A DNA stretch of 64,000 nucleotides from Prorocentrum cordatum (GCA_963575745.1 CAUYUJ010000131.1:1-64000), one strand, 5' to 3'. Positions 8,420-29,099 are shown, counted from the first letter of the stretch. Notes: a model not told the origin generated them from the sequence alone. Made by a program: numbers and translations.

Positions 8420-9778
8420 AGAAGTGAATAGTGAAAAGTGAGTAGTGAATAGTGAGTAGTGAATAGTGAGTAGATAGTAGCGAGTAGTGAGGAGTGAGGA
8501 GTGAGTAGTGCGCAGTGAGTAGTGGATAGTGAATAGTGAGTAGTGAATAGTGGGTTGTGGGGAGTGGGTAGTGACTAGTGAGTAGCGAATAGGGAGCAGC
8601 GAGTAGTGAATAGCGAGACGCGAAAAGGGGATTGTGAGTTGTGGGTAGCGAAGAGGGAGTAGTCAGCAGTGACTAGCGAGTAGGGGGCAGCGAGTAGTGA
8701 TTAGTGAGTAGTGAGTAGTGAGTGCTGAGTAGGGAGCAGTGAGTGGTGAGTACTGAGAAGGGAGAAGTGGGCATTGAGTAGTGGGTACTGGGTAGTGCGT
8801 AGAGAATAGCAAATAGTAATAGTGAGTAGTGAGTAGTGGGCAGTAAGTCGTGAGTAATGAGTAGTGAGTACTGAAGAGCGAGTAGTGAGTAGCGACTTGT
8901 GACTAGTGACTACTGAATAGGGAGTAGGGAGTAGGGGGTAGTGAATAGGGAGTAGTGAGTAGTGCGTAGTGTGTACTGCATCTTGCGTATTGGGTAGCGA
9001 GTAGCGAGTAGGGAGTAGCGAGTAGTGAGTAGTGAGTAGTGCGCAGCGAGTACTGTGTAGGGAGTAGGGAGTAGCGGGTAGCGAGCAGCGGATAGTGAGT
9101 AGTGAGTTGTGGGCAGTGAGTTGTGAGTAGTGAACTGTGCGTTCTCAATAGTGAGTAGTGGATAGTGATCCGTGGGTAACGAATAGGTGCTTAGTGAGTA
9201 CTGAGTCGTGGGCAATGAGTAGTGTTTGACATGTAATGAATATTGCGTACAGGGTAGTGGGCAGTGAGTAGTGAGTAATGAGTTGGGAGTAGTGAGTAGG
9301 AGTAGTGAGTAGGGGAGCGCAGTGAATAGTGAGAACTGGGTACTGAATTGTGCGTGTTGGGTAGCGGATAGGGTGTAGGGAATAGCGAGTAGTGAATAGT
9401 GAGAAGTGAGTACTGTGTAAAAGGGGGTAGGGAGTAGCGAATAGCAGGTAGTGGATAGTGAGTAGTGAGTTGTGGGCAGTGAGTAGTGAGTAGTGAGTAG
9501 TGAGTATAGTGGTTAGCGGGTATTGAGTCATGATTTGTGAATAGTGAGTAGTGGGTAGTGAGTTGTGTTTAGTGAGGAGTGAGTTTTGAATAGTGGGTAG
9601 TGAATAGTGAGTAGATTGTAGTGAGCAGCGAGTAGTGAGTAGGGAGTAGGGGCTAGCGGGTAGTGGTTACTGAGTAGTGGGTATGGAGTAGTGAGTCGTG
9701 AGTAGTGAGTTGTGAGTAGTGAATAGCGACTAATGGGTAGTGGGTAGTGAGTAGTGCGTAATGAGTACTGAGTACTGT
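8420..9778. repeat. Degenerate heptamer satellite (TAGTGAG)n
   Basis: ~1.35 kb of GAGTAGT/GAATAGT/GGGTAGT variants. Confidence 0.93.
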
Positions 9779-9847
9779 TTGGGGCTAGGATTAAGGTTTG
9801 GGGCTAGGGCTAGGGGTTAGGGTTAGGGTGAAGATTAGTGTTAGGGG
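9779..9847 (+). repeat. Short degenerate telomere-like (TTAGGG-type) tract
   Basis: GGGCTAGGGCTAGGGGTTAGGGTTAGGGTGAAGATTAGTGTTAGGGG. Confidence 0.55.
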
Positions 9848-10519
9848 TGGTACGGTTGGTTTCCGAAGCTCGGAGGCGCCGTGGCGAAAGGGGGGGGGGC
9901 TTTGATTGTGGCGGCCAAAGGGGGGGGAGAGGGGGGGGGGGTCGGACTCCCCCCCCTGTTGAAATGGGGGAAGGGGAGGGGGGTTTCAGACGACGGATCG
10001 GGAAAGGGGGGGGAGGGGGGGGGGTTCCCCGACGACGGATCGGAAAAGGGGAGGGAGGGGGTCCCCGACGATGGATCGGGAAAAGGGGGGGGGGAAGGGG
10101 TTCCCACCAACCCCCCTTTGGGGGATCCAACGGCGCACCCTCGGAAACTCTGCCAGGGACGTACTGCCGGCCCATATCATAAGGATGCGCGATAAGGACG
10201 CAAGCGCCTTGGACGCCCATGTCGAAGCGTCTCGAGCGGAGCGCGGCCAACGAAAGTGGCCAAGCATGGACCGAGGAGGCAAGGACGCAAGGGTACCCTT
10301 GGGGAGGTTGCCCATCCTTACAAATCGGGTTGACTGTACAGCACACGCATGCGGGGTGCAGGCCAATGGATGAGGAGGAGCTGGCGAGGGGCAGGCCCGA
10401 GGTGATCGGCCTTTCGGCATGCCAGCGGACGTGTCGGCCTCGTCCGCTCGGCCCATGCTGCAGGCTTCTGAGTCTCTGGGCGAGGCTGTCCTGGTAGGAC
10501 ATCGCTGTGGCATGATCTG

Positions 10520-10575
10520 CTCGTCATCGTCGTCGTCGGCGTCGTCGTCATCGGCATCGTCATCACTATCATCAT

Positions 10576-10625
<50 letters not shown>

Positions 10626-10644
10626 GCATCATCAGCAGCAGCGG

Positions 10645-10708
<64 letters not shown>

Positions 10709-11125
10709 GTCGTTGTCGTCGTCATCGTCATCATCATCAGCATGAGCATCATCATCAGCAGCAGCATCATCAGCATCATCATCATCGTTGTCATCAGCAT
10801 CATCACCAGCCGCAGCATCAGTATCAGCATCAGCATCAGCAACAGTACCGTCGTCATCATCATCAACATCGTCATCCTCGTCATCATCATCACCATCATC
10901 ATCAGCATCATCAACATCATCGTCGTCATCATCATCACCACCAGCCGCAGCATCAGCATCAGCATCAGTATCGTCGTCATCATCCTCAACGTCGTCATCC
11001 TCGTCATCAGCATCACCATCATCATCAGCATCATCAACATCATCAACATCGTTCATCATCAGCAGCAGCAGCAGCTTCAGCATCACCATCACCATTATCA
11101 TTATCAGTATCATCGTCATCATCAT
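10520..11125. repeat. (CAT/CAG/CGT)n microsatellite
   Basis: Directly visible triplet runs. Confidence 0.95.
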
Positions 11126-11953
11126 GGGACCCCCCTGCCCGTGACCATGGTGCGAGGAGATGTGCTGCCAAGGTTTTCCGATGTTCGCTGGGGTTAAACA
11201 CCCAGACCGACCAATCGATCCTCTCAAGTAACCAGCCTCCTGACCCTCAGACCACTTCCCTGGGGCCTGGTTCTCGTCCAGGGCGCTTCTTGACGAACAG
11301 TCCGTGGGCCGAGATACGGCCGCCCGAAAATTGCAGCAAAAGACCTCGAGCGAGATTTCCAAAAAAAACTTGGGAAGTCTGGGTTCCTCGGATGTAAAGC
11401 AGGTGTGAAGACTTCCGATCCCCGACGTCGAGGACACCGACGACGACAACGACGACGACGACGCCGACGCCGGCGCCGACGACGACAACGAGGACGACGA
11501 CGACGGCGGCGGCCGCGGCGGTGGCGGCAGCGACCGCGGCGGCTGCGGCGGCTGCGACGGCTGCGGTGACCACGGCTCGGCGCGGGCTCCCCTGGGAGCG
11601 GCGGCGACGGTCGCGGGACGGGGAGTCCTGGGTCGAGCCGTTCGGCACATCGTTCGAAGATCCGTGCGCTCGTCGTCGTCGAGCGATCGAGGATCGATCG
11701 ATCGACGCTTGAGCTTCGAGTATCAAGGGTCTCGTTGAGTATATGTGTCCTCGTCGTCTCCCTCGTGCTGCTCCCCTTTCTTCCCCGCCCTCGCCCTCGG
11801 AAACGAGCTGCTGCTCCTCCTGCTCTTCCTCGTGATCGGTTCTCTTCATCTCGAGGCTGACGCTCCTGACCATCTTGCCCTCACCGAGCACCGCCGCAGC
11901 CTCTCCCCGTCCTCTCGTTGCAGCCTCTGGCTGCCTGCGCCAAAATAATAATA

Positions 11954-12028
<75 letters not shown>
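11954..12028 (+). repeat. Poly(A) tract (~75 nt)
   Basis: Homopolymer preceded by (AAT)n. Confidence 0.95.
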
Positions 12029-12029
<1 letters not shown>

Positions 12030-12807
12030 GAATGGCTGTCCCCTTCCTCCCGCCCTGCTCGTAGAGGGAACCAGAAAGCATGAACGTTCGGAAATCCGAG
12101 CGGATTCTTCTGGGAACCGCCCTCGCGGCGCGCCGACCCCGGCGCGCGCTTCGCGCGCCAATGATGAGGGGGGCCGAGCACCGATCCGAGAACCCCCCGC
12201 GCGGATCTCGGGAAGCTTCTGCCCGTGTGGTTTGCTCGTCCTCGACCTCCGTCCTCTCCTCGCTGTCCTCCTCCCTCCCCGGCGGATCCCTCTCCGCCTC
12301 GCCCCACCCCCTCGCCAGCGGCAGCCAGGGGCAGCAGCACCCCATGGAGAGACGGTGACGGCCACGGCGCCGGCAGCAGCCGCGGCGGCGGCAGCGGCGG
12401 CAGCGGCGGCACCGAGGGACCAGGCCGACCGACAACTGCCAGGAGGCCGGAAGCCCACACGGCTGGATTCGCATGCGGAAGGGCAGGAGGAGGAGGAGGA
12501 AGAGAGGCGTTGGGGCCTGGAGGCCCCCCACTCCCCATACCGTAACCTGCTCCCCACATTCATTGTATCCTTCAGGCCCGCGACATTCATTGCGTCCTTC
12601 AGGACTGCGGCATCGGCTTCCTGGGCTACTTCTTCCTCGCCGACTTCGTCTACCACGACCTGCTCTACACGCCATCGCAGTCCTGCCTGATATCGACGAC
12701 TACGACAGGAAGGCGCCGACGCACGAGTACTACTACAACTGGACCGAGCACGACTACTCCAAGTCCACCACAGCGCCCAACAACCACCCCGACCACCCGC
12801 CACCACC

Positions 12808-14846
12808 ATGGCGCCCAAGATGGCACAGACTCCAGTCGGCAGCTACCACAACAAACAGTGGCACCAGCAGCAGTACCAGCACCGACACCAGCAATACCAA
12901 GGGGACACCACAGGACCCCCTCGGACACAATGGCGCGCCCGCAGCCGTGACGACACCCGCGGCACGGGCAGCAGCACCTCCATGGGACAGCAGCACCAGC
13001 AGCAAGCACAAAAGCAACCACAGCACAGCCTCAACGTGAAGCGCAGACAGGAGGAGAGAAAAGAGACGGCTGCCAACATCGTCCCCATGACCCTCACCGA
13101 AGCCAGAAGAAAGCAGCATTGGAACGAGCTACCCCCAATGCACCGCTTCGACAGAGTCAAGGAGTACCTCCAGACTTGCAAATCAGACGTCGACTACCTC
13201 ATTACCACCATCCAGCGGCACGCCAACGACGACTACGACTTCGACGGAATCGTCACCAAGATCCGTCTACAGAAGTCCATGCTACTATACCCGTACGACG
13301 CAAAGGACCAGCGAAGAGAGGTCGAGAGCATGATCAACGACACAATTACCCAGATGGACGACTCACAACAACAGCTGGAGGAGCTCCAGCAAAAGGCCAC
13401 AGTATTGGGAGATCGGCATCGCCAACTTCGAAGGCTTGACGACAGCATCAGGGGGGCCGACTCGGATGACGATGCGGACGCCGAGTCAGCAACAACACCC
13501 AGGAGGCGCACAAAGCAACAACGCTCCGACACCCCTGCACCCAACATGGGGAGACGTCACCGAGGATGCATCGGGGAAATGTCACCAGCACCACCAGCGA
13601 CTCAAGTACCCACGGAGGCCTCCACCGTCAATAAGCTGCGACAAGAGCTACAAGAAGCACAGCAGAAAGCTGAAGCACAACGAAGTCATGCTGCACGGCA
13701 AAAAGCCATCATCAACCAGCTCGGGGAAGCGAAGGAGTCCCACTACAAGAACGAAAAGGAAAGCTACCGCAGGCTCCAGCGCTGCGAGAACGACCAGATG
13801 GAGGAGCACAAGAAAGAGATCCACACAATCAGGAACGCAACCGAGAAGATCGCAGAGCACAGCGCGCACAAGACCGAGAAAGACAGCATCACCAACGAGA
13901 ACCTCAGGAACGAGCTCCGCGAGGCCAACAACATCATGCGCCAGAGCGTCGACCACAACAGCAAAATCTCCCAGGAATCAAGACAATACTACGAGAGCCA
14001 CCAGGAGATAGCCACCACCAGCGAGTACCTACAAAGAGCCTTGGAAGAAGCACGACTACAAATACATCAACCACGGCAGCCACGCGCTTCGGACACGCTC
14101 ATCCAGTACAAGAACCTAGACAAGAGCTTAGAAGAGAAAGACGAAGCCATACAGCACCTAGAGCACCAACAACAGATCATCACCAACGACCTACAGCAGA
14201 CAAGGAACGCAGCCCATCAACCCCACGACCAACAGCAGGCACAAGAACAACTGCGACAAAAACTCGCAACAGCGGAAGCCAGGAACGCGAACATCGAGGA
14301 TCTGGCCCGAAAGCACATCCAGCAAAACTACAACCTCCCAGAGCAAAGGATCAACTACCTCGAGAACGAGATCTACGGGCAAAAGCAGATCATGCATACC
14401 GAAGAAAATTGCACCAGAACAAGACCGAGATCATCCGGGTACTAGAGGGACGGACCGAGGACACGCAGAGCCACATCACCCAGCTCTACCGGCACAAAGA
14501 GGCTTACGCGGCGACAGCGGAGCTACAAGCGAAACGCATACACTACGACCAACACCAGCTCAACGCTGCAAAGACCTCCATAGAGTCGCAGGGGCAACTC
14601 CTCCAGCAGCTACACAACAAGCAACATGTCACAAAGACACAAATGCAGCAACAAGCAAAACAGCTCGAGGACGCCCGCTCAGAGATCCACGCTATGCAGA
14701 ATGAACGAAAAAGCAGACTTCGCCCACGACTTCGCCAACCAGCTCAGGGACGACGACCACCACTCCATTGGTACCTTCCCTCAGGCGCCACAATGAACAG
14801 GACTACAAGAAGTCGACCAAGGAGCTCAGCTCATCGTCATCCCTGA
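12808..14846 (+). pseudogene. LINE-A ORF1-like coiled-coil protein (frameshifted near 14410-14445)
   Basis: 545-aa ORF rich in Q/E/K/H heptads (KLRQELQEAQQKAEAQ..., NLRNELREANNIMRQ), continued by overlapping ORF 14409-14846; lies upstream of pol domains. Confidence 0.6.
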
Positions 14847-16267
14847 CTCCGAGATATCCGACTTCCGGGACCAGGGCACCCAGACCCAAAGGGACGACTA
14901 CCAACGCGAGAAGGATCTGTTCAACCTCACGAAGACGACACCCGAAAGCGAGCACTCAGCCACCTTACCATACGCTGACAGTGCTACTCAAATTTCACGA
15001 CCTGTGCGGTTCATAGAACAGATGCTACCTCAAGTTGAGCCGTGGGAACCAGCTTCAACGCAGCCGAGGACAGACGACTACTACCTCAGCTGAACGGAAA
15101 AGTTCCACATCCAGCGCAGCGACTAAGAAGGAGACGGAGCCCCGACACCGATAGCAAACGAACAGGGACTACTAGACCAACCAACCAACAGGAACAGCCG
15201 AAACGACACCACGCACACCGCCAAGGGAAGCAAGCATATCACCAACGGAGTGCATGACACCGATCGGCCTCCGACCAGCACCGACCTTCCATATGGGCAC
15301 CCCACCGAACAGATCAGCATCAATGCCACCGAAATCTCCCGCCCAGCCAAAGAAAGCAGTTCGCATGCACCGCAAGCGCGCAGAACCAAACCGATCTCAG
15401 TCAGCACCACGACGTTCAATACGCTTCGCCGCGGACAACGGCCAGGGCGCAGTTGACCCAGCAGATGAGAGGAACATCATCCCAGTGAACCACCACGACG
15501 ACAGCGATAGCAGCGGCATCGACGGGGGTGCCAGCGACCAAACCGCAAAAACTCACGAGGGACGGCGGCATTGGGGACACCACCACCACTGAGGCCAACA
15601 GGGCCAATATAGCAACAACCAATAGACTCAACGACACCTCACTAGGAGGGTCAACGCCAGAGCACGTCACACATGGAACGACTAGCTTCACGACAGACGC
15701 GCACGGCCCAATGCACGATCCCTCTACCAACGCCGAACTGCAATTCGACGAGCAGCAGTGCTCCCTTTTTTACCAGCGCCGCACAGACAGCCGACGGCGC
15801 ATCTCCTCGGACAACCCCTGCAGCAACGCACTGAATACACGTGCGAGCAGGGAAACCGAGACAACGCCATCAGTAGCTAACCTCCAGGGGGATGGAGATA
15901 GCTCAGAAAGCCTGTCTGTTGAGAGGGACGGCGGGGCAGCCATAGACCTCACAACACCTGCTTCAACCAGATACATAGCCCGGGCTCCGTGCGAGGCGAC
16001 CTGGACATCAACGCGGAGGGCGCGACATCTGCAGACCGACGCTCCTACAGAGGAGGAGCCACTCCCCCCCCGAAGTGCACAGCAAGGACGGAACTTTACA
16101 GTGACAATTCCGTTCCCCCCCACGGAGCCGACAGCGGCCGTCCTGAGGCGCACATTGCCACCCACTCCCCAGCACCAACATGACCTCGCTGACGTACCCG
16201 ACCTCCACCCAGCCGCCGCCATGGCGCATGTTCTGCGCCCACCTCGACCCCATCAACAGGTCAAAAG

Positions 16268-16700
16268 ATGGCACTATACACAGACTGCACACATCAGCGT
16301 GACTGCACCCAAGACTGACTCATGGGCCCTGGTTATCACCACCGAAGACGAACAAGGTTACATCTACCAGGGAAGCATCGGATCCCACAACAACCTATCA
16401 TTTAGGCATGACAACGTTCCCTGTAACTCGACCACGTCAGAACTAGCAGCTCTTATATGGGCGCATACACGGATATGTGCACACTTCCACAACGCCACTC
16501 ACAAGCCTGATGACACTATACACACCGATTCCAGGATCGCCAGAGGATTCGCTAAGTGCAATTTCCCACCAAAGAAACCCAATCAGATGACCGACTTAGG
16601 ACGACTACTACACGACCTCACTTCCGCAGCGGTCAACCTCAGCACTGACCAGTACGAGCACACACAGGACACCCCTGGAATAAGCTCGCAGACAATATCG
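16268..16700 (+). pseudogene. RNase H domain of LINE-A (N-terminal to the endonuclease)
   Basis: Across frameshifts: LYTDCT (YTDGS-like, 16274), SWALVI, STTSELAALIWA, IHTDSRIA, VRAHTGHPWNKLAD (16652-16693), i.e. the D-E-D-H-D RNase HI motif series. Confidence 0.85.
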
Positions 16701-16934
16701 TCAAGATGTACGCAGCTACGCCCAGCAAGTACCAGCAATGTCCACAAGAAGAATGGACAAGAGCCTTCCACGCCGACAGAGAACGACAATGGGAGTGGCT
16801 ACAAGAAGCAGACAGCGAAACCACGGACGCCTACCCCAACATGAACCAACACGGACTGGAGGCACCTCAAGCCAACATACAAGCTCGACCGATCCACTTT
16901 GTACCGAGGCACACCGAGACTTCCACCGACAGGA

Positions 16935-17675
16935 AGATCGACATCCGCATCTGCACCTAAACGCGCGCGCCTTCAAGATCCCCGAGAAGCAGGGACGCGA
17001 CAAAAAAAGAAAATAGCAAGACTCACAGCCATCCGACAACAGCTCTCCGACATCGCAATACACATCATCGGCATGCAGGAGCCAAGACTACCACGTGGAA
17101 CCCACACCGCCGACCAATACACCATCATTGCAAGCTGACACGACAAACACATATTGGATTGCTCGGACAACAGCTATACTGCAAACCCAGCCACTGGACA
17201 ATAATGACCCAGAACCCCAGGCTACTGATAGTCAAATGCACAGCAGCTGGGCTCAACAGAACAATAGTGGTCGCACACCCACCACACTCACATGCCGGCG
17301 ACCTTGCGCGCAACCAGTAGTGGGACAACATCAGCGCTGAGACGGAAAAATGTAACGGCGACATCATCCTCATCGATGCCAACGGTACTACTGGGAGCAT
17401 CACCTGTCCTCATTTTGGAAATCAAGGTCAACCTGAAGAAGAAAACAGAGGAGGAAAGTACTGCCACGCCTACCTGCAGCAGCACAACCTCTTCGCCGCC
17501 AACACTGATATACAGACACCTGGACCCAGTCACGGAAAGAACATCCAGCAGCGCATCGGTTACATCCGCCTACCATGCGGACAAGAGACGACCATCAAGC
17601 ACATAGAAGTCCTCGACGACTTCGATACCCACCAGGAAGACGAAGACCATTACCCGATCATCGCTGACTTGACCT
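16935..17675 (+). pseudogene. APE/EEP endonuclease domain of LINE-A
   Basis: IRICT*/NARA, IIGMQEPRL, ILIDANG, NLFAANT, RIGYI (RIDY-like), EDHYPIIADL (SDH-like). Confidence 0.85.
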
Positions 17676-18559
17676 ACACCGGGAAGACCGACATCAAGAG
17701 ATGTGGCATACCCATGGACCGCGCAAAGCTGCGAGACCCAGGAGCTCAACAGAAGTTCAAGGACGAGATCGCTATGATCCCACTACCACCCTACCAAGAG
17801 CAGATGAACGACCACGCTAGCTGCCTCGCACAACAAGTACATGAGGCAGGCATCGAGACTTTAAAAACCGACAAGGTCCACCCAAGGAAGCCATACCTAC
17901 AAACAACAGCTTTCGCCCTCATCCGCGTACGGAAGGCAGCCCAACGGCCACCACGACGCTTACGACAAAAGAGGCGACAACATCAAGACACGGGTAGGCC
18001 TCATCACCTTAGTCTACCAGATCTACGAAGCCAGCACCCGCGGCATCAGCGCGCACGAGGCCCTGACAAACCCAGAAACCCTATTTGCACTTCAACGCGT
18101 AGCTGAAGACATCATGCACATCAACGCCCAGCTCGAGGAGATAGCACTGGCAGCGATCACATTCCCACGCGGATCATCACCCCAGCTTGCAAGCACCATC
18201 GAGACTGACCGCTCCATTTACCTCGCGGGCATTGCCAACCGCACAGGGGACGCCTACATCAACAACGACCCCAGAAGAGCATGGGTTGACATCAAGAGGC
18301 TCCTGAGGTATGGAGGCGGACCAGGACGCGTCACAGCTGAACACCTACACGTCATCGGCCCTGGCGGACAGCCACTACATGATCAACTACAACAGGCGGA
18401 AGCAGAACTAGACCACTTCGCCATCGCCGAGCACTTAAGACCATGAGCCCGCAAGAGATTACCGACAAGTGCAACAGGCACGCCAACTACGCAGCCACAA
18501 TCAGAACGCTGCACAACACACCACTCCGCAACGTCATCACCAAAGAAGAGACAAAGCGA

Positions 18560-20141
18560 CAGTTCACACTGGCAAAACAAGGAGTGGAGGCCCTGACACC
18601 CTCATCGATGACTACTGCAAGATCGCTCCGAAAAGGATGACCAGGATCTACCACCCACTCCTGGTAAAGGTGCACCTTGCGACCGTGGAGCCACCATCTC
18701 ACAAAGGAGGATGGCAAATGTCGCTCTCCAAGCCCAACGCAACTAAACCTGACCTACAAGCGGGACGGGTGATACTACTCAACAGTATTATAGCTATGCA
18801 CCACCACCGCTTCCTACGACGCACCAGGCTCAAGAGCATCACGGCTCAACTACTACGAGGCGCACAATACGGGGCGCGACCACGCCAGCCCACCAACTTC
18901 ATCACGCATGTGACCCTGGGCGTCATGGACTACCTCGGAGAAAGAGGAGAATCAGCTATGTTACTTTTCTTGGACCCGAAGGACGCCCTTTACAGAGCGG
19001 TACTTCATGTTGTCTTCCAGCTCCCGCATACACCAGATGAGCTTAACGAACTGCTACACGACATCAGTATACCCGAACCATGCCTTCGTGCACTACAGAT
19101 GGCCACGGAAGGAGCGCCCAGATTCAACCACATCGTGGACGACGAGCACCGATGCGCAGTGCTACAAGACGAGCACACGGACACGCGGGCCACCACGAAA
19201 GAATCCACCAGACTAGCGCCGCCACGTACTGGCACGCGACCTGGAGTACCAGCGTCAGGCCTCACCGTGAACTACCTCTTTGCAAAGGCTACGCGGCACA
19301 TTGCAGAGGACACGATCGACAGCATCCTTAAGATAGACATCGACACATGACAGCAGGAAGTCATCTTCCCCAAGGGCAGACAAGCAAGAGACGGGGAGGA
19401 TGGAGGAGCACAAATTGCAAACGCATCCTCCTTAGACGACATGAACGCGCACACACGTATACGACAGAACACGTTACACGACATCATCGACACGGCCAAG
19501 GCGCTCTCCAACATCATAGTCAAATGGACCCTGACCCATGGCATGGGACTCCACGCCCCCAAAAGAAACAGATGATGCTATTCCTACATGGACGCCAGAG
19601 CAGAACAGCGAAGATGCAACTCGCCAAACCCAACATCACGAACATAGAGAACGAGCACCTCAGCGAGCCAATCGAGTTCGTCAACTACCAGATATCGCTG
19701 GGCACAGCAAAATACAACGGAGGACAAGGTCCAGAGATACAGCAGTTAATCTCAAAGGCTACACCGATCAGGGCTCCACTACGCATGGAAGTCTACAAGC
19801 GAAGACAGCTGAGCATGGACAACAAGACCTTCCTCAACGATGCGCTCACCAACTCGGCCCTCTTCTACAACTCACACATCTGGAACCCTCTGAACCAGGG
19901 GCAGCCCCATGGCATCGAGACAGAGTACCTGGAGGGGTACAGGATGGCAGCTGGATGCAAGGCCAACAACCACGACCACCAAAAGGTAAACAACGGCAAG
20001 GTGCTGACTGAAGCTAGACGACCAGATGCGAACCTCGCCATGCGCATCTTCAGGCTACGATACTTACCGAGACTACTACAACACGCGCCAACCATAATAT
20101 CACGAATAATCGACGCCAACCTCAGCCGAGACTCATCATGA
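18560..20141 (+). pseudogene. Reverse transcriptase and thumb region of LINE-A
   Basis: SGGPDTL, KGGWQMSLSKP, RVILLNS, QYGARP, LFLDPKDALYRA, GTRPGVP, SLDDM (decayed YxDD, ~19430), then SALFYNSHIW and LRYLPRLL. Confidence 0.88.
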
Positions 20142-20424
20142 GGACAGATGATATACGACGATCTACAGTGGATGTGGACATACCTCGACGACGAGCACAA
20201 GCTACAAGCTACACCCTACCGTAGACCTCGACCCTGTCCTCAGCGCAATTCGCGGGAAGCCCCAGATCTTCACGGCTCAGGTTAAGACCGTGACACGGCG
20301 CTACATACGACGCAATCTTGACCAAGAGCACATACGACCATGGCACAACAACTTGCGACTTTACCAAGACAACAACCTTGTCCCACAATTCATTTTGGAC
20401 GACAAACACAACGACTAGACGATA

Positions 20425-20590
20425 ATGTGTTACGAATGTGGAGCCAGCTTTACAGAGATCAACTCATTCTACGTCCACATGGAAACATCACCCAATAGAC
20501 GACCACCAAGCCAGATAGGTCCATGGGACAATGTGCCTGACATGCCCCAACGAATACCGCACATTTGGATGACTCGTCAAGCACCTACTC
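20425..20590 (+). pseudogene. Two C2H2-like zinc fingers of LINE-A
   Basis: CYECGASFTEINSFYVHM and CLTCPNEYRTFG*LVKHL. Confidence 0.7.
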
Positions 20591-20864
20591 GCGTGAATCG
20601 CATGCGCGGCACCCTGGAGACGAAACACAGAGAGGCATGACGAAGCAACCACGGAAGCAAACACAGAAGCCAGACGAGACGAGCAAAAAGCCAACATCAA
20701 GGTTGGACTACCCCCACTGCACGCACACATAGCCAGCTACACGACTGACATACCGCCGCTGTACATCAAGGACTACAAGGCTACAAGGGAAGTACTCATA
20801 CCTGCTATAGCACCGGTGGAACCAAGGCCTGACCCGACGCCGATGCCAAGACCGACAGGTACAA

Positions 20865-21704
20865 GGATACAGGTCATACTACACCCCAGCAGCGGACACA
20901 GAAGCAATGGCGATGTGCAGCAATGGATAGAATACCTCAACCCTTACGACAACAGCATCACAGCACTCCCCATTGACATCACCTGCGACGAGAACAAGGG
21001 CGACCTCACGAAATGGGACACCATACACTTCTGGAGAGACCACCTACTACGCGGCCGCGTGGCCGCCATCATAGCGGGACCATCGCGCGAGACATGGAGC
21101 GGGTATCAAGAGCGACCTCTGAAGAGCCGACACCAAGCTTGGGGACTACAGCACCTGTCTCTGAAGCAGTTCGAACAACTACACATTGACGACAAGCTAC
21201 TGCGCACAAATATTCTGCTTGCATACATATCCATCAACAAGAAGGTCCCAATGATCATGGAGTAGCCCGCCAGTCAACGATGGGAGAAATACAGCAAGCT
21301 GCTGGCTACTGACGGAAATCACAAACATGGTTGGCATTGATGGTGTGGACCATATTACTTTCGACCATTGCATGACTGGACACACAGCCGAGAGACCGAC
21401 TACATTACTCACGATACAGGCCCCAGCAGCAGAAGCACGACGGACGATAGCACTACTACCCAAACTCGGAAGATGCAACCACGGCACAGGACACCACTAC
21501 CACTCAACTGGACGGAGCAACCATGGCTATGGGGAAAGAGCTAGCGCCAGGACCCACACCACCGAGATGTGCACACGACTGGCCCATGCCAGCATGGACG
21601 CCATCCACCACAAATGGACACAACCAAAAGACCGCGAAACCTGGGACATGAAAGGCGGCATGATGAAGTTCTACGTCCCGCTGGACCCGTACTACTACGT
21701 TTAA
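20865..21704 (+). pseudogene. C5-cytosine DNA methyltransferase domain at the C-terminus of LINE-A pol (inactivated)
   Basis: Motif I-like VILHPSSGHRSNGD, PIDI, GDLT, motif IV-like IIAGPSRETWS (from GPPCETWS), motif VI-like IME*P, FDHCMTGHTAERPTTLL (DQC.FG...KPT.LL-like), motif X-like ARTHTTEMCTRLA. Confidence 0.8.
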
Positions 21705-21947
21705 GGCACCCAAATACTGCACGATCAAGCACCGCAGGGGGCAACGAGCACACCAGGCTGACGACTGGTGGTGCCCACCCCGCACTGCGCGGGCCAAGGC
21801 GGTCCATTGCTCAGGATACAAGCAGCGTCCTCAGCAGTGGTTCTGGCACGCCCCACTGTGGCGCCCGATCGCCTACCCTGTAAAAAAAAAGCCACCCCCC
21901 ACCCCCCACCTGCACATCCCCCGATAACAACACCTGACACATCACTA

Positions 21948-21971
21948 ACCGTAGCGCAGCCATGGCTCAAG
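21948..21971 (+). other. Dinoflagellate spliced-leader relic
   Basis: ACCGTAGC-GCAGC-CATGGCTCAAG versus DinoSL DCCGTAGCCATTTTGGCTCAAG: both 8-nt ends exact, with a 5-nt insertion and 3-nt deletion; lies just 5' of a coding region. Confidence 0.65.
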
Positions 21972-22030
21972 AGCTAAGCCAAAGCTGGCCAGCGCGCCCT
22001 TGGCGCACCCATTGCCAAGCGCAGCACACC

Positions 22031-24170
22031 ATGAAGTCTCCTCTGGATCTACATCCTCAGCGGCTTACAATACCTCAACAAGATCAAGACGAATGCATCC
22101 GGATACCTGCAGACGTCTTTGACAAACTACCGAAGTTCATCGACATCAACAAGGTCAAGCTTCACTGCACCAACGGAGTCAAGGACCTGGACTACGCCAA
22201 CCAGCAACGAGTTGCAGTCATCAACGCAACCCCACGCAAGACACGGAGCGGTGCCCCGCCTGAGTACAAACAAGAAAGAATGCAGACATTAATGTCCTAC
22301 AGCAAGGGCTACGACAACAAGCAGGCGCCCATATACACTCTTGAAGACCCCCAACCAGAACACAAGAAGCTGTTCCGTGCACAGGCATCGTCAGGCCATC
22401 GCAAGGAGTCAACACGCATGAAGCCCTTGAGCGTTACTACACGCACGTCTACCTTGACCTGGGTTACATCTACGTCCCCGCGGCAGTGAAGGGCGGCTTC
22501 GTCCGCGCCCTCTATCGGCACCACATCACCATCGCCTACCCCGCCGCAAGTGGGGAGTGTTGGAAGGACAAGGTCAAGGAGAGCTGGGCTACCATGCTAG
22601 ACAACTCCGTGGTACATTCCATCAACGAGATGTGGACCGATACAGACCATTAGATGGACCGACCTGGTAACTACCCGCATTACCGCTCCGCCGCAAAGTG
22701 CCGCACACTAGAAGACGCCGCTAACGACCGCGACCCCAAAAAGATACCAGCCCCCAGTCTGGAGTGGCCCGACAACAGCTGACAAGTACTGACCACTACT
22801 GCTACAAGCACCACCGCGGAAGAATAAGGACGAAGAGCCCTTCACGAACCTCCAGACTTCACACGTCCTCAAAAAGAATGACATGGAAAAGCTTCACAAC
22901 TTCGAAGAGATAGAGCGCACAGCCATTCACAGCAACATCGAGAGATACAGCCCGAAGGTATACATCGCGGCGGTCACCGACATCTACGGCACACTGCACC
23001 CTACCTCCGAGATTGGAACACTAGCCGCCTACGCAAGAGACATCGTGGAAACCCGCGGAGGAGGAACACTACATCCATATACGGACAACTACATCCCCGC
23101 TGTCGGTCGCCACCACATTACCTCACAAACGATCGGTGGATTGCACTGCGACGAGACGAACCTCGGAGGACAGCGAGTATCAGTACATCTATGCCACCAA
23201 CGGGAACTCGCACTCCTACCAACATGGACGGGCACCTACCGAACGCCACCACTACCTCCAAAGGAGATCGACCACGTGACGCCACCCACCAGCGACCTCC
23301 CCAAATGACCCGCCATCATCGACAACGCCCTCATCGAATACCCAGCTCAGGCGCTGCAGGGGATCTCCGCTACCTCGGAGACATGCACAACAAGAATCGA
23401 CGGAACCACAAACGTCCACGCGGAGGCCAACAAGCGGGAGATCATCGTGCACCAGGCCGAGATTACCCCAGACGTAGATGCACTACCCGAGGTAAGACCG
23501 CGACCTGGCTCCGAAGCACCAGGATACAAGCAACCCACCCGCGTCCAGCTTGGTGGAGCCACGAAGATAAAGGTCACCGACATCGATAAACTACCCGAGC
23601 AAGATGCACACAAAGCAAGACAGTACCTCGTCGAGGACGAGGACAGCCACAGCACGCGTCATCTGCTTCAACACTGCTAAAAACTACGCAACGCAGGCTT
23701 TCAGCCCATCATCTGGACACAGAGCTACTTCCCCGATTGGCATACGGCTTTTCCAGAAACCACACCACAACAAGCACAACGGCTAGCTCGCACGATCCCA
23801 ACAAATACTTACCTACAGCTCTCACGGAGAAGATCTACACCACAGGTCCAACAAACCATCCCATTATCTATGCCGATTGCCTCCCAGCCCATATATGGTC
23901 CAGGGCTTGGGCCCCCACCCCTCCCCCCCAATGCTGATGCCATTGGGCCCCCCCCCCCCCGCGCGATGGTCCCCCCCGCCCCCCCCTGTGGGCGTGGCGT
24001 GGTGCTGCGCTGCGGTGCCCCCCTCCCCCCCCCCTGTGGATGTGGTGTGGTGCTGTGGTGGTTCAGAGGTGGGCGTGGCGTGGTGCTGCGCTGCGGTGCC
24101 CCCCTCCCCCCCCCTGTGGATGTGGTGTGGTGCTGTGGTGGATCAGAGGTCGTCGTCGTCGTCGTCGTCC

Positions 24171-24205
<35 letters not shown>

Positions 24206-26560
24206 ATCGTCGTCATCGTCGTCGTCGCCGCCGCCGCCGCCGCCGGCGTCGTCGCCGCCGCAGCCGTCATCGTCGTCGTGGTCGTCGTCGTCGCCGTCGT
24301 CGTACTCGTCGCCGTCGCCGTCGTCGTCGTCGTCGTCGTCGTCGTCCTCGTCCTCGTCGTCTCTGGGACCATACCATCTGGGGGGGGGCCCGAGGAATAC
24401 TGGGACCATACCATCTGGGGGGGGGGGGGGGCCCGTGGGCCCGGAGCCCGGGATCATATACAACCAGAACGCGACTCCGACGCCGAACCAGCCGCCACCG
24501 CCGCCTGGACAACCCCCAGGCAGAGCCCCATTACAAACAACTACAACGACGCAGGGGCCCAAACGACACGTCCGCAACCCATTGGCCCCACCAATGTACA
24601 ACCAAGGGGACACCCGACGACCCTACCCATCCCGCAACGCGAAGCTGCCACCAGGCTGGACTGCGCACGCTGACACAAACAGAAGCCTCGCGTACCACCA
24701 CAACCTGCAGACAGGCACCACGAAGTGGAAGTTCCCAGGCGACGTCAACTACGATCCATGCTGCACCCGGCAGCTAACCGACCAGAACGTCAAGGCCTTC
24801 AGCATCAACAAGGACGGCTGCTTCTACTACAGCCTCAGGCCGATACTCCCTCCATCCCTAAACGACCACCCTCCCATGCCAGAGTTCCCAGTCAAACGAG
24901 AGAAGGCCGACAAAGCCATGACACAAGCCATCCACGACCTACCCGACAAGCTGCGGACCGAAAACCAACGGGAACCAGACGCACACGAATGGGTTGACCG
25001 AGCACATCTATGGTACAGCGATCTCGCAGGAGGCACTTTCTTCTCCCACCTCAAGGTCAACCAGGACCCCAGGCCATTCCTCATCCTCGGCAACAACATG
25101 CTCGTGGTCGCACCCATACGAGAGGGAGGCCCACACCCTCCACGCGCAAGCCACATCGTCCGCCGTATCAAGCAGCTGCGCGAGATGCACATCGATATAC
25201 CACCGACGCGAGAACCAGCCCCACAGGGAGAGACAACGCACAAGGAGGAAACCATGGTGTTGACCGCAATCAACAATACAGCCCACCTATCGGACAATGA
25301 TACACCTACGGGCAGTGGCGACAGAACCACTAGCACAACGCCAGTAATCACACCCTCACAAATGACTCCCAATCAAGACCACCGATCACTCCCTCAAAGC
25401 GGGCACATCGCAAGAACGAATCCAGTGAGATACAAAACCCCACCTACTTTGCCGACCGTCAGAAAAGAAACAGCAGAACAGTCCACTTGTATGATCGACT
25501 AACAAAGCAAGATCACACAGCAGGAGCACGATTCAGGGGAGCAACATGCCTATTACCGAATCCAGCAGCTCCGACCCGACGTTCAGCGACAGCACCTCAG
25601 CAGCAAACGGCAACCAACCACCTGCCATACAAATCGAAGCACTGAAGCCCACTGGATGGTTCCCCATCGCGACGATCACACACGAGAAGGCCAATCCCGA
25701 CACAAACACCTTCCCCATGGGAGCAACCATACGTCACCCGTACCACACAAAGCTTGAGGACTCCATCGCACACGGCACCATCACGGTGAACGAGGGCGAC
25801 GAGGTCACAATCCCGAGCACGTCCTACAACAGCAATAACGACCTATGGGCACGGGGCACCATGACTCAGACCAAGAACATCCGAAGTACCAAACAAGCCC
25901 TGTTATCAGATACCATCACCGAATACCACTCCCAACACAACGACATTTATGAGGAGCTCGACACCCTCACCACGATGGTAGGGGGGACATCATGTCAGGT
26001 ACAACCACGCCCTCGACATCCAGAAGGAAACCACCACGGCCAAAGACTCCGCGTCCAAATTCCTCGACAGCCTCACGAGCCCAGCAACCAACTACGCCCC
26101 TAACCACCGGCGATAGCCATCCCCGCCATCACCCACACAGGCCTGGACGGCCGAACGTGGTGCCAACGTTCCCGACGCCGTCACAACACAACCTACCATG
26201 CCCTTCCAACCTTCCGGTCGACGCTCCAACCGACCTCTCCCACTCACACTCTGAATCTCTACACGACTCCCATGACTCGACCTTCTCCGAGCGAACCAGG
26301 ATCACCCCACCTGGACGCCACTACACTAAAGCCATGCCTCAGGGTCGGACCGACCTCACAGCGGCTGACCGTACTATCCCGTCATCTTCGAATGCGCCCA
26401 CCTACTCATCTCCCTCACATGCGGCAGTGTGCGGACAAATGGCGGCAATACCTTGGATACAGCGCCTACTTCCATTGCACCGCCTACAGGGACCTGGTCC
26501 CACCTTGCCCCCCCACAACCTTCACCACCTTCCTGGCCCTCGTGCCTCGTCCTGCTAACC
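22031..26560 (+). pseudogene. Decayed multidomain ORF: 2H-phosphoesterase-like HxT pair, Pro-rich tract, WW domain, SH3-like segment
   Basis: RHHITIAYP (HITIAY 22522-22539), GRHHITSQ (HIT 23114-23122), QPPPPPPGQPP, LPPGWTAHADTNRSLAYHHNLQTGTTKWKFP (24645-24737), TGWFP...ATIRHPY...ITVNEGDEVTI...LWARGT (25654-25860); several stops and frameshifts; 3' end uncertain. Confidence 0.6.
23896..24456. mobile_element. MITE with TIRs and TATA (or TA) target duplication, containing a (GTC)n microsatellite
   Basis: TATA|TGGTCCAGGGCTTGGGCCC ... GGGCCCGGAGCCCGGGATCA|TATA; removing the element plus one TATA restores the frame MPIASQPIYNQNATPTPNQPPPPPP. Confidence 0.85.
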
Positions 26561-27631
26561 TAACCCCCCCTACCCCCCCCCCCTGCATGCATGTGGAGTC
26601 GGGAGGGCGGGGATGCCATGGGGGGGGGCTGGGGGGAGGGACGTTCTGCGGCGCGCTCTGACCCACGCACCCACCAGCGTCTAGGCTTCAGATCGCACTG
26701 CCATGTCTACCAGTACCTCTTCTTTTTCACCTGTTCTGTCTCCATGTCACCGCAGTCCGCCCCCCGAGGCTTTCCCCGTCCATAGCCAACTCCGTGGACC
26801 AAGGCCCTTAGGCAACCCGTTGGGTAGACCTTTTACAGAAGGTTCGACTGGACCTCCCCCCACTTCAAAAGAGCGACCCTACTGCTGGGACCTCCAAAAG
26901 AGCTTGCCACTGCGGCCCTCTGCCTCCACCCTAAGAGCATGCCAACCGCAGCTTACCAGCCGACCCAGTTAGGCACCAGGACCTCCACTTCCTCTTTCAT
27001 GCTTCCCCACCCTCACGTCCAGGTGCCATTGCCCATCGTTTCTGCTCGACCTCACGTCCTCCGACCGCAGTCGCCGCTGTTCCCCGACCGTCGCTGTGCC
27101 CACGGTCATCCCACCTTCCCCTTCTGTACGTTCCCTCCTTACCTCCTCCGCGACCAGGCGCACGGAACTAATACCGCCTCCAGCGTCACGCCTTCGCTTT
27201 CGAGCCCGCGTACCCACCTACCCACCCACCTCCGCCGTTCCTCGCTCCTCTCCTTATACACCTTTTTTGTTTTCGTCCTTCCCCTTTCCTGTTCCTCGCG
27301 CCACGGCGACCAAACCACCCCAAGGGCCTAGAGGCGAACCCCCTTCTCTCTCCTTCTCTCTTCCTTTCCCCCTCCCTCTCTTTGCCTCGCTCTTCCGCTT
27401 CTGCCTCTAGGGGCTTGCCTTCTCGCCCTTGGGGTACGTTGGCCCTCCGTCTGTGCTGTTTTACATCAGGCGCCTCCCACTTCCCCCCCCCTCATTGTTA
27501 GTGATCGGTTGCTCTCTATATTATTATAACCTTTTCCCTAATGAGCCCCCCCTCCCTCACTGGGTTTTGCCAGGTGGGAGGGGCTGGACAGGTTTGCATG
27601 GCGACAGACTTTTCGATCGCCATTAGCCGCA

Positions 27632-27738
27632 GCAGGAGGAAGAGGAGGAGGAGGAGGAGGAGGAGGAGGAGGAGAAGGAGGGAGAGGAGGAGGAGGAGGA
27701 GGAGGAGAAGAAGAAGAAGAAGGGCGAGGAGGAGAAGA

Positions 27739-27769
<31 letters not shown>

Positions 27770-27812
27770 AGAGCAGGAGGAGCAGGAGGAGGACGCGTGG
27801 AGGCCACGCGCT

Positions 27813-27852
<40 letters not shown>
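27632..27852. repeat. (GAG/AAG)n and (CA)n microsatellites
   Basis: Directly visible. Confidence 0.95.
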
Positions 27853-27854
<2 letters not shown>

Positions 27855-28454
27855 TGCGGGGGGGGGATGGGGGCCGCGCGTCCGGCCATGCGAGGGCCGA
27901 GCGCTGTGGGGGGGCATGCGGCCACGTGCGTGATCCAACGCTCGCCTCAGGCCTGCCACGTCATGTCTGCGTACCCAGACCCCCTCGCGCTGTGGAAAAA
28001 AACACGACGGAATGTTCGTCGCGATGTTTGGTCTCGGGGGGCACTCACCAGCCCTCGGGAGCGTCACAAAATGATTCAGAATGAAAAAAAACAGTCCTGG
28101 GGAATGGGTCGAGACCTCTGAGGGTCGACGTCATGAAAAAAACATAACGTCGGGGGTTTTTGGTATCTGGCTTCCTGGCACGAGGGGATGATCGAGGCAA
28201 AGAAAAACAGCAGACAAGCACTGGGCGGGGCGGAGGGTCCCAAGTCTTGTCGGGCCGCGACCACGCCACGACAGCGCTCACGGACGAACTTCTTGTATCA
28301 CACCTGGAGAAAGAGGAAGCGGGCGAGGCTGCCACTACTCAGCACTTCAGAGAAGCAACAGGCACTGATCAAATCAAACAGAAGGGAAATGGAGCGCACA
28401 GGCAGCAGAAGGATCGGAGGAAGCGGCGGTCACAAATAGGACGTGAATCGGGCG

Positions 28455-28607
28455 AAGAGAAGGGTGCACATGCACCGATCCTGGTCAGGCTTATCCTGGG
28501 CCCGGGATCGGGGCATAGGCTTTCCTGGCCAAGGCAGGAGGTCGTATGCACAGATCCTGGGCTCAGGATGGGCCTGGCCAGAATCGGTGCATGCGCATAC
28601 TTCTCTT
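28455..28607. mobile_element. Fold-back element (~70-bp arms, very short loop)
   Basis: AAGAGAAGGGTGCACATGCACCGATCCTGGTCAGGC... pairs with ...GCCTGGCCAGAATCGGTGCATGCGCATACTTCTCTT. Confidence 0.75.
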
Positions 28608-29099
28608 TCCTCGAGTGAAGAGAGGCACACCGAGAGGGGAGAGGAGGGAGATAGAGGGGGAGGGAGGAGGACCGCACATCCCACGATGAGCAACTTCGCC
28701 AAACGGCGGATGGTTCAGTCCATTTGGTGATTATCGCACTTCTTGTCTGTGGAGTTATCATGGTGTGCTCGTCGCTGGTGCTGCGGACGCAGTTCATGAA
28801 GCCAAACGACGCAATCTCGGTGAAGAGCACAAGCCATGAAGTGGCGGGCGGTCAACGCTGGCCTCCCGGACTCGCCGGCCGCACTGGGCGTACCCTCGCG
28901 CTTTGTCCGGCAGGTTCTCGCGGCCTGGTGCGGCAGTGCCACCTGCTCAAACTTCGCGGAGCCGGCAATCCTGGGCAAGACGCTCCGCCGCACAGGGCTC
29001 AGAATTTGTTCGTCGGCACGCATGAGACCTGCGCTCGGCCTGCGTCGTAGCGCTACGAAGCGTAGGCTATGGCATATTGACTAATCTGGATTGGCTGAC

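What the first reader, a model, noticed from the sequence alone, without database searches (positions are those of the whole stretch)
12500..26560. Possible ~14-kb composite retroelement: methyltransferase LINE plus spliced-leader-led 2H/WW/SH3 cargo
Seen: LINE-A (ORF1, RNase H, APE, RT, ZnF, DNMT) is followed within ~250 bp of its last stop by an SL-like relic and a second long coding region on the same strand. That region shares the A/C-rich strand bias and a similar level of decay, and no microsatellite separates the two, although microsatellites punctuate the rest of the window. Known: dinoflagellate LINEs carrying Dnmt domains were described by de Mendoza et al. 2018. Inference: this family may carry an extra gene captured from a trans-spliced mRNA, combining an RNA-end-processing enzyme with protein-interaction modules. 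I do not know of a described LINE with such cargo.
Basis: partly seen in the sequence, partly recalled or inferred. Interest (0 to 1): 0.88.

Follow-up and report, generated by a model that had tools for sequence, protein, structure and literature searches.

The report
Long dinoflagellate LINE with extra gene
A decayed 14-kb jumping-gene copy in a dinoflagellate-type genome carries, behind its normal genes, an extra gene that seems to have been copied from a spliced messenger RNA; other copies appear to share the pairing, but most of the proposed enzyme functions could not be confirmed.

Summary
The observation largely holds. From about 12.7 to 26.2 kb the + strand is one A/C-rich, T-poor block of decayed reading frames. 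The last stop of the first part is at 21702-21704, and an A9 run lies at 21882-21890. A spliced-leader-like 24-mer lies at 21948-21971, and an ATG at 22031 opens a second coding region. No tandem repeat separates the two parts.

The one public DNA run that holds the stretch (X1) carries the whole 12.5-26.5 kb as diverged repeats. Depth falls at both ends of that span. One contig runs collinearly over 21747-22217, across the A9 run and the leader relic. So the relic is internal to a repeated unit, and the second region is not single-copy.

I read this as a composite non-LTR retrotransposon family with a 3' ORF taken from a trans-spliced mRNA (confidence 0.5).

Not supported: the methyltransferase, 2H and SH3 calls, which have no profile, PDB or fold support. 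RNase H, endonuclease and RT rest on motif reading only. Only the WW domain is confirmed. The element is not a SymbioLINE-Dnmt as published. I could not count how many copies carry both parts.

The parts
12540..12808 (+). Putative 5' UTR. The true 5' end is not defined.
   Evidence: The A-rich skew starts near 12690. Repeat coverage in X1 is seen from the bin that starts at 12536. No target-site duplication was found.
12809..14843 (+). ORF1, a long helical or coiled-coil protein with one frame change near 14400
   Evidence: A 584-aa open frame spans 12691-14442 with its first Met at 12809, and continues in frame 2 to 14843. The only Pfam hit is weak: OVT1 helical domain, E 0.0029.
16311..16693 (+). 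RNase H-like motifs (acidic residues plus a His...Asp end motif), split by a frameshift
   Evidence: Read by eye in the translations (frame 2 ORF 15489-16841 and frame 1 ORF 16649-16957). Pfam, NCBIfam and PDB searches were negative. The motif rule is recalled, not from a call.
16935..17662 (+). Apurinic-type endonuclease-like motifs
   Evidence: Four motif positions lie in order across frames 1, 0, 2 and 1. Pfam Exo_endo_phos was not detected. PDB found nothing.
18583..19443 (+). Reverse-transcriptase motifs 0 to 5. The coding region continues to about 20140.
   Evidence: Read by eye in frame 0 ORFs 18439-19347 and 19351-19572, which are separated by one in-frame stop. Pfam RVT_1 was not detected even in the read-through. 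PDB found nothing.
20428..20481 (+). C2H2-like zinc finger
   Evidence: Pfam zf-C2H2_4, E 0.0078, 17.3 bits, below the cut-off of 27.
20865..21704 (+). The stop is at 21702-21704.
   Evidence: Open frames 20597-21262 and 21255-21701. There were no Pfam, NCBIfam or PDB hits. A search among longer proteins found no homologue, 0 of 976 candidates. The AF2 model had pLDDT 33.
21705..21890 (+). 3' UTR-like stretch ending in the A9 run (21882-21890)
   Evidence: A9 is the only A run of 8 or more in 12.5-26.5 kb. The stretch 21747-21890 is covered by the bridging X1 contig (record 4).
21891..21947 (+). 57-nt C-rich spacer between A9 and the leader relic
   Evidence: It is covered by X1 record 4.
21948..21971 (+). 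Dinoflagellate spliced-leader-like relic (24 nt)
   Evidence: It is the best leader alignment on the + strand, score 13. Six X1 contigs read T at 21962, which brings the 3' part closer to the relic form printed in PMC12014239.
22031..23680 (+). N-terminal third of the 3' ORF.
   Evidence: ATG at 22031. P0001 (190 aa, 70% identical) starts at the same Met and runs across the window's frame break. Three X1 contigs have an extra C after 22360, which joins the two frames. No 2H family was found by Pfam and PDB found nothing.
23988..24361 (+). Tandem arrays inside the 3' ORF (80-nt unit x2, then a GTC run), probably expanded in this copy
   Evidence: X1 contigs join 23868 to 24454 and 23895 to 24477 with only 15-21 other letters between (table 5c).
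24645..24737 (+). WW domain
   Evidence: Pfam PF00397, E 4.4e-4, full-length match 1-31 of 31. Of 139 phmmer hits, all but 5 have their best stretch on this part.
24816..25250 (+). Conserved region of unknown fold, matched only by short fragments of other copies
   Evidence: P0003, P0010, P0014, P0020 and P0030 are 47-72% identical. AF2 on the 5-row alignment gave pLDDT 43.
25720..25899 (+).
   Evidence: Frame 0 ORF 25495-26100. There were no SH3 hits in Pfam and PDB found nothing relevant.
26100..26560 (+). Pro/Thr/Ser-rich tail or 3' UTR, and the approximate 3' end of the repeated unit. There is no A tail.
   Evidence: The A skew fades from about 26150. X1 depth is 15.9 in 25850-26483 and 1.72 in 26484-27117.

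Best explanation
This is a dead copy of a roughly 14-kb composite non-LTR retrotransposon family of a dinoflagellate-type genome.

The first 9.3 kb is a LINE. It has a coiled-coil ORF1 and a very long ORF2 with RNase H-like, endonuclease-like and RT motifs, a zinc finger and an unidentified C-terminal domain. It ends in a short 3' UTR with an A9 remnant.

Behind it lie a 57-nt spacer, a spliced-leader relic, a 59-nt leader and a third ORF of about 1,400 codons. That ORF encodes a WW-domain protein with otherwise unidentified domains.

Inferred history:
1. A cDNA of a trans-spliced mRNA came to lie just behind the A tail of a master LINE. This happened either by insertion there or by template switching of the RT.
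2. Transcription ran through the LINE's own end.
3. The joint RNA was then copied as one unit, as in 3' transduction.
4. Many rounds of copying gave the extra ORF the same A-rich, T-poor strand composition as the LINE.

Shown: the anatomy, the shared composition and decay, the multi-copy state of both parts, and one collinear junction in another copy. Inferred: the route of capture, unit-wise retrotransposition, and any function of the third ORF.
For: - Composition and skew are the same in both parts and differ from the flanks.
- Frame decay is similar: 18 segments over 9.0 kb against 11 over 4.5 kb.
- The junction anatomy is as described.
- In run X1, 2476 contigs were laid at 80% or more. 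By likeness they split 30 / 254 / 846 / 1346 (99+ / 95-99 / 90-95 / under 90).
- Summed depth is 11-50 in every bin from 12536 to 26483 except the microsatellite bin. It is 0.5-3.7 in 10634-11901 and 1.7 in 26484-27117.
- Record 4 (553 nt) lies on 21747-22217 with 64 differences and 1 gap, across A9 and the relic. Record 5 lies on 21907-22475. One contig joins 21898 to 22101.
- The listed long pieces are 82-86% alike in both the LINE and the second part (table 8).
- An extra C after 22360 in 3 contigs, together with P0001, shows that the 3' ORF was continuous where the window copy is broken.
- Other copies read T at 21962, closer to the leader relic form.
- Other leader-like relics in the window (49186-49200 and 62205-62221, minus strand) and five long + strand A tails show that mRNA-type retroposition was frequent here.
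Against: - No listed contig runs from ORF2 coding sequence (left of 21704) into the third ORF. Record 4 has 76 unlaid letters at its left end, so a boundary near 21747 cannot be excluded.
- Depth does not rise towards 26.5 kb, as 5' truncation of one unit would predict. It peaks in 22046-22679 (50) and is 16-18 at the 3' end. The tool warns that contig depth cannot rank parts.
- There is no A tail at the composite's 3' end and no target-site duplication was found.
- The leader-like match is not significant window-wide.
- RT, endonuclease and RNase H were found by no profile.
- No second copy lies in the window. No DNA locus was found in the metagenome, viral or prokaryote collections.
- X1 may be the same organism as the window or a relative, and it is only one study.
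Confidence: 0.5

Rival explanations
1. There are two separate repeat families. The LINE ends at the A9 run. The second region, with about 200 nt of leader upstream of the relic, is a non-autonomous retroposed unit that tends to land behind A tails. The two are therefore often neighbours but are not copied as one.
For: Record 4 stops matching at 21747 with 76 unlaid letters. Depth is higher on 22046-22679 (50) than on the LINE 3' end (30-34). A9 looks like a LINE tail. The LINE itself starts about 500 nt behind another element's A73 tail, so insertion behind A tails is plausible here.
Against: A retroposed trans-spliced mRNA should start at its leader, but another copy shares at least 200 nt upstream of the relic, including A9 (record 4). 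Composition, decay and likeness to X1 contigs are the same in both parts. There is no A tail at 26.56 kb.
Confidence: 0.2
2. One LINE family has a native third ORF. The leader-like 24-mer is a chance match or a functional motif, and no mRNA capture took place.
For: The leader match is not significant window-wide, with 4 of 20 shuffles reaching its score. The third ORF has the LINE's composition, not that of the flanks. Beyond the WW domain it has no relatives other than fragments of the same family.
Against: The match lies on the coding strand in the 326-nt gap between two ORFs, 59 nt before the ATG, exactly where a relic is expected. Other copies are closer to the relic form at 21962. A9 lies 178 nt after the ORF2 stop.
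Confidence: 0.15
3. The 14 kb is a DNA-level segmental or tandem duplicate of a locus where a LINE and a retrocopy happened to lie together, not a retrotransposing unit.
For: No target-site duplication or terminal A tail was found. Dinoflagellate genomes are rich in duplicated arrays (general knowledge).
Against: Likeness to X1 contigs spans from 99+ to under 90% with most under 95%, and coverage falls sharply at both ends. That pattern is typical of a dispersed, aged repeat family. No tandem copy lies in the 64-kb window.
Confidence: 0.08

Closest known systems
L1-type 3' transduction and template-switch chimeric retrocopies (recalled knowledge; no paper read here)
   Same: The order is LINE body, remnant A tail, then foreign sequence on the same strand, and the joint is repeated in another copy. 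This is what read-through past a weak LINE end, or RT switching from the 5' end of one RNA to the 3' end of another, would give.
   Different: Here the carried piece is a whole leader-tagged ORF of about 4.5 kb that seems to persist in a family. The composite has no terminal A tail or target-site duplication in this copy.
SymbioLINE-Dnmt (de Mendoza et al. 2018, PMC5890265; passages read)
   Same: It is a dinoflagellate LINE family with an accessory coding module and no poly-A tail at the element's end.
   Different: In the published family the DNMT (PF00145) is ORF1, upstream of the RT ORF, and the domains are found by Pfam. Here ORF1 is a coiled-coil protein and no DNMT is detected in any frame. 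The extra module lies 3' of ORF2 behind a leader relic.
DinoSL-tagged retrogenes (PMC12014239, passages read; PMC5585692 and PMC6050394 seen in the search listing only)
   Same: A leader relic lies just upstream of an intronless ORF.
   Different: The relic is internal to a repeated unit that extends at least 200 nt upstream. There is no A tail at the 3' end. The ORF has TE-like composition and many diverged copies.
LINEs that took up foreign domains, such as the viral SF1 helicase in TRAS and Jockey elements (PMC6338049, passages read)
   Same: A non-LTR retrotransposon carries an accessory protein module of outside origin.
   Different: Those modules are fused into the element's polyprotein. 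Here the module is a separate downstream ORF with its own leader relic and start codon.

Membership tests
APE-type non-LTR retrotransposon (LINE) | Reverse transcriptase domain | tested here: inconclusive
   Pfam RVT_1 was not detected in pieces or in read-through frames, and PDB phmmer found nothing. RT motifs 0-5 are readable in order at 18583-19443. The motif rules are recalled.
APE-type non-LTR retrotransposon (LINE) | Apurinic-type endonuclease N-terminal to the RT | tested here: inconclusive
   Exo_endo_phos was not detected and PDB found nothing. Four motif positions are readable in order at 16935-17662.
APE-type non-LTR retrotransposon (LINE) | Dispersed multi-copy family with diverged copies | tested here: met
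   2476 contigs of run X1 were laid at 80% or more, most under 95% alike, covering 12.5-26.5 kb.
APE-type non-LTR retrotransposon (LINE) | Target-site duplication and a defined 3' tail | tested here: not met
   No flank repeat beyond 8-10 nt C-runs was found. A9 lies at 21882-21890, but there is no tail at 26.56 kb. A single decayed copy makes this a weak test.
SymbioLINE-Dnmt | C5 DNA methyltransferase (PF00145) encoded in ORF1, upstream of the RT ORF | tested here: not met
   ORF1 (12809-14843) is helical with no DNMT hit. PF00145 was not found in any of the three frames. The definition comes from PMC5890265.
SymbioLINE-Dnmt | Flanking target-site duplications, conserved UTRs and no poly-A tail | tested here: inconclusive
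   There is no poly-A at 26.56 kb and no duplication was found. UTR conservation cannot be tested without other full copies.
DinoSL-tagged retrocopy | Leader relic at the 5' end of the copied unit | tested here: not met
   A relic-like 24-mer is present, but X1 record 4 shares 200 nt upstream of it. It is therefore not the 5' end of the repeated unit.
DinoSL-tagged retrocopy | Poly-A tail at the 3' end | tested here: not met
   There is no A run of 7 or more between 21890 and 27996.
WW domain proteins | Match to PF00397 over its full length | tested here: met
   E 4.4e-4, profile positions 1-31 of 31, 20.7 bits, below the gathering score of 26.9. phmmer gave 139 hits, of which 134 have their best stretch on this part.
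2H phosphoesterase | Two His-x-Thr/Ser motifs in a duplicated alpha/beta fold | tested here: inconclusive
   Two His-x-Thr tetrads with the same two preceding residues lie at 22519-22539 and 23111-23128. They are about 197 codons apart and in different frames. No 2H family was found by Pfam and PDB found nothing. No fold was obtained.
SH3 domain | Match to an SH3 profile | tested here: not met
   No SH3 family appeared at E up to 5 on 25495-26100 or in read-through frames. PDB found nothing relevant.

The most novel reading that the evidence does not exclude
An autonomous dinoflagellate LINE family has permanently taken up a gene from a trans-spliced host or foreign mRNA as a third cistron. 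It expresses that gene by spliced-leader trans-splicing of its own long transcript. This would be a polycistronic retrotransposon whose WW-domain protein, possibly with a 2H-like RNA-end enzyme, serves the element's RNA or its docking to host proteins.
Probability: 0.25. Interest if true: 0.7.

Novelty: new variant of a known kind. Interest (0 to 1): 0.45.

Why it matters
Dinoflagellate genomes are shaped by massive retroposition of leader-tagged mRNAs, and the elements that drive it are poorly described. A LINE family that carries a leader-tagged ORF would show a direct route by which an mRNA-derived gene becomes a passenger and is multiplied. It would also raise a testable idea: trans-splicing may let a retrotransposon express a downstream cistron.

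It would add a second kind of accessory module to dinoflagellate LINEs besides the published DNMT. As it stands, the copy is dead and the functions are mostly unknown, so the value lies in pointing to a family worth reconstructing from full assemblies.

Tried and rejected
Sources that were unavailable or closed:
- No whole genome is held for this window.

Searches for other copies:
- Self-comparison of the window found no second copy. blastn gave none; tblastn gave only one low-complexity hit.
- The look-up of sequencing runs listed one DNA run (share 0.06) and no RNA holder, so there is no evidence on expression from runs.
- The search for related loci with two alignments found nothing in metagenome contigs, viral contigs or prokaryote genomes.

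Protein searches:
- 20597-21262 among longer proteins: 0 of 976 candidates.
- 22793-23305: 0 of 25 candidates.
- 21938-22486: 1 of 20 candidates, namely P0001.

Family, structure and RNA searches:
- Pfam, NCBIfam and PDB gave only the WW domain and weak noise.
- AF2 on 20597-21262 alone gave pLDDT 33.2. AF2 on the 5-row alignment of 24816-25190 gave pLDDT 43.3. No fold search was run on such models.
- Rfam found no family in the window.

End and flank comparisons:
- I considered a shared C-rich motif after A9 and after 26.56 kb as a common tail or duplication. It scored 23 against a shuffle mean of 19.8 (sd 2.5), so I rejected it.
- Exact-word comparison of the flanks gave only 8-10 nt C-runs.

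Earlier notes of this scan and literature:
- Nothing relevant was found in earlier notes.
- Literature searches found 0 papers for '2H phosphoesterase' plus retrotransposon. Nothing described a leader-led cargo in a dinoflagellate LINE. Supplements of PMC5890265 were not opened and could hold element consensus data.

I then counted the coordinates by hand.


Full report
**What is in the sequence**

The + strand from about 12.7 to 26.2 kb is one block of A-rich, C-rich, T-poor DNA.
- AT skew is 0.28-0.54 and GC skew is -0.10 to -0.25 in every 1-kb bin from 12 to 24 kb and from 25 to 26 kb.
- The flanks are near zero (fine scale).
- The LINE part has A 0.30-0.35 and T 0.10-0.15. The second part has A 0.27-0.30 and T 0.12-0.15. 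The flanks have A about 0.21 and T about 0.19.

Stop-to-stop frames show a chain of long open pieces that change frame about twice per kb in both parts. There are 18 pieces over 9.0 kb and 11 over 4.5 kb.

Tandem Repeats Finder gave 76 rows for the window. None falls between 12412 and 23987, so nothing separates the two parts. Two arrays (23988-24150 and 24149-24361) lie inside the second part.

**The junction**

The junction reads as follows (leader match):
- ORF2 stops at 21702-21704.
- An A9 run lies at 21882-21890, the only A run of 8 or more within the block.
- A 57-nt C-rich spacer follows.
- A 24-mer, ACCGTAGCGCAGCCATGGCTCAAG, lies at 21948-21971.
- After 59 nt more, an ATG at 22031 opens the second coding region.

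**The leader relic**

The 24-mer is the best match to the dinoflagellate spliced leader on the + strand. The leader sequence I used was recalled. Its relic form, CCATTTTGGCTCAAG, is printed in PMC12014239 (passages).

The match needs two gaps. Its score of 13 is reached by 4 of 20 block shuffles of the whole window, so it does not stand on its own. It counts only because it lies on the coding strand in the 326-nt gap between two ORFs, just ahead of a start codon.

Six contigs of run X1 read T at 21962, which brings the 3' part closer to the relic form.

Other leader-like relics lie in the window:
- An exact 12-mer at 49186-49197 on the minus strand, ahead of an ATG.
- A further match at 62205-62221.
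- Sources.

Five long A tails all lie on the + strand. Together these mark a dinoflagellate-type genome with frequent mRNA-type retroposition.

**Domains**

Only the WW domain is confirmed.
- Pfam PF00397 covers the full profile at E 4.4e-4, below its gathering score.
- A HMMER scan of 1.84 billion representatives with 24621-25499 gave 139 hits. Of these, 134 have their best stretch on the WW part.
- Five short fragments, 47-72% identical, cover the rest.

No RT, endonuclease, RNase H, DNMT, 2H or SH3 signal came from any of these searches:
- Pfam on 24 and on 15 pieces.
- Pfam on three read-through frames of the whole 14 kb.
- NCBIfam.
- PDB phmmer on six pieces.

In the translations I can read the following in order:
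- RNase H-type residues at 16311-16693.
- Four endonuclease motif positions at 16935-17662.
- RT motifs 0-5 at 18583-19443.
- A C2H2-like finger at 20428-20481 (Pfam E 0.0078).

The motif rules are recalled, not from a call. With the multi-copy state (below), this makes a LINE the sensible reading, but it is not a profile-level result.

The three remaining domain calls are weaker:
- **DNMT (20865-21704):** it rests on two loosely matching motifs. AF2 gave pLDDT 33. No longer homologue was found, 0 of 976 candidates.
- **2H:** it rests on two His-x-Thr tetrads about 197 codons apart.
- **SH3:** it has no support.

**Other copies**

No genome is held for this window. The window has no second copy.

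The one run that holds part of the stretch (X1, DNA contigs, word share 0.06) was laid at 80% likeness on 10000-29000.
- 2476 contigs were laid. By likeness they split 30 / 254 / 846 / 1346 (99+ / 95-99 / 90-95 / under 90%).
- Summed depth is 11-50 in every bin from 12536 to 26483, except the microsatellite bin at 23948-24581.
- Depth is 0.5-3.7 in 10634-11901 and 1.7 in 26484-27117.

So the whole 14 kb, and little beyond it, is a diverged repeat family.

Among the 8 of 2585 pieces that were listed:
- Record 4 (553 nt) lies on 21747-22217 with 64 differences and one gap. That spans 135 nt of the 3' UTR, A9, the spacer, the relic and the start of the second ORF.
- Record 5 lies on 21907-22475.
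- One contig joins 21898 to 22101 with 10 other letters between.
- Listed pieces are 82-86% alike in both parts.

Three contigs have an extra C after 22360. In window coordinates this joins frame 1 (open to 22486) to frame 0 (open from 22345).

P0001 (190 aa, 70% identical) is the only hit of 20 candidates. It starts at the same Met and also runs across that break. The second ORF was therefore continuous where the window copy is broken.

Contigs that join 23868 to 24454 and 23895 to 24477 show that the internal tandem arrays are an expansion of this copy or subfamily.

**What this does and does not show**

It shows three things:
- The second region is not single-copy.
- The leader relic is inside, not at the start of, the repeated unit.
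- Both parts have the same composition, decay and divergence.

It does not show how many copies carry both parts.
- No listed contig runs from ORF2 coding sequence into the second ORF.
- Record 4 has 76 unlaid letters at its left end.
- Only 6 of 988 loose ends were printed.
- Depth peaks at 22046-22679 and is lower at the 3' end, which one unit with 5' truncation would not predict. The tool warns against ranking parts by contig depth.
- X1 is one study, and it may be the same organism as the window.

**Mechanism**

The best-supported reading (0.5) is a composite LINE family. In this reading, a cDNA of a trans-spliced mRNA came to lie just behind the A tail of a master LINE, either by insertion there or by RT template switching. 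Read-through then made a joint RNA, which was copied as one unit, as in L1 3' transduction (recalled knowledge). Repeated copying would explain why the passenger has the LINE's strand composition.

The rivals are:
- Two families that often land next to each other (0.2).
- A native third ORF with a chance leader-like string (0.15).
- DNA-level duplication (0.08).

Missing for the composite reading are a terminal A tail and a target-site duplication. One decayed copy is a weak test of either.

**Comparison with what is known**

SymbioLINE-Dnmt has its DNMT in ORF1 upstream of the RT ORF. It has target-site duplications, conserved UTRs and no poly-A tail (PMC5890265, passages). Here ORF1 is a coiled-coil protein and PF00145 is absent from all frames, so this element is not a member as tested.

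It differs from ordinary leader-tagged retrogenes (PMC12014239, passages) in three ways. The relic is internal, there is no A tail, and the ORF has TE-like composition.

It resembles LINEs that took up outside modules (PMC6338049, passages), but the module here is a separate downstream ORF.

My searches found no paper on a leader-led cargo in a dinoflagellate LINE, or on a 2H domain in a retrotransposon. bioRxiv supplements are closed, and the supplements of PMC5890265 were not opened.

**Verdict**

It is a new variant of a known kind if the composite holds up in full assemblies. Interest is moderate, because the copy is dead and the exciting enzyme labels are unproven.

Noticed in passing
window 11944-12029: A long A tract (73 pure A after an AAT-rich lead-in) on the + strand lies about 500 nt upstream of the LINE's start. 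It looks like the tail of another retro-insertion. Further long + strand A tails lie at 3408-3427, 47579-47632, 57093-57113 and 60648-60669, and no long T runs were seen.
   Followed up: partly
window 49186-49200 (minus strand) and 62205-62221 (minus strand): Two more spliced-leader-like relics. The first is an exact 12-mer of the leader's 3' part, 19 nt ahead of an ATG. They suggest retroposed mRNA copies on the minus strand.
   Followed up: partly
window 1617-2112, 30122-30385, 53601-54094, 56456-56661: The same 83-nt unit occurs as short tandem arrays at four separate places, so it is an interspersed minisatellite-like repeat.
   Followed up: no
window 60838-61484: A tandem array of an 89-nt unit (about 7 copies). 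The unit contains a 13-nt stretch that resembles the middle of the spliced leader. Its meaning is unknown.
   Followed up: no
window 3537-5390 (minus strand): An open frame of 617 aa in very GC-rich DNA carries ankyrin repeats (Pfam Ank_4, E 4.4e-20). It was the only Pfam hit among 20 other long frames tested.
   Followed up: partly
window 38862-43750 (+ strand): A run of long open frames (543, 206, 203, 206, 275 and 485 aa) has no Pfam hit and no strand skew. It may be another decayed element or gene.
   Followed up: no
protein P0001: The only database relative of the second ORF's start carries a source label of a green alga (Pyramimonas sp., EukProt), although the window has dinoflagellate-type leader relics. 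This could be contamination of that transcriptome or a wider host range of the family.
   Followed up: partly
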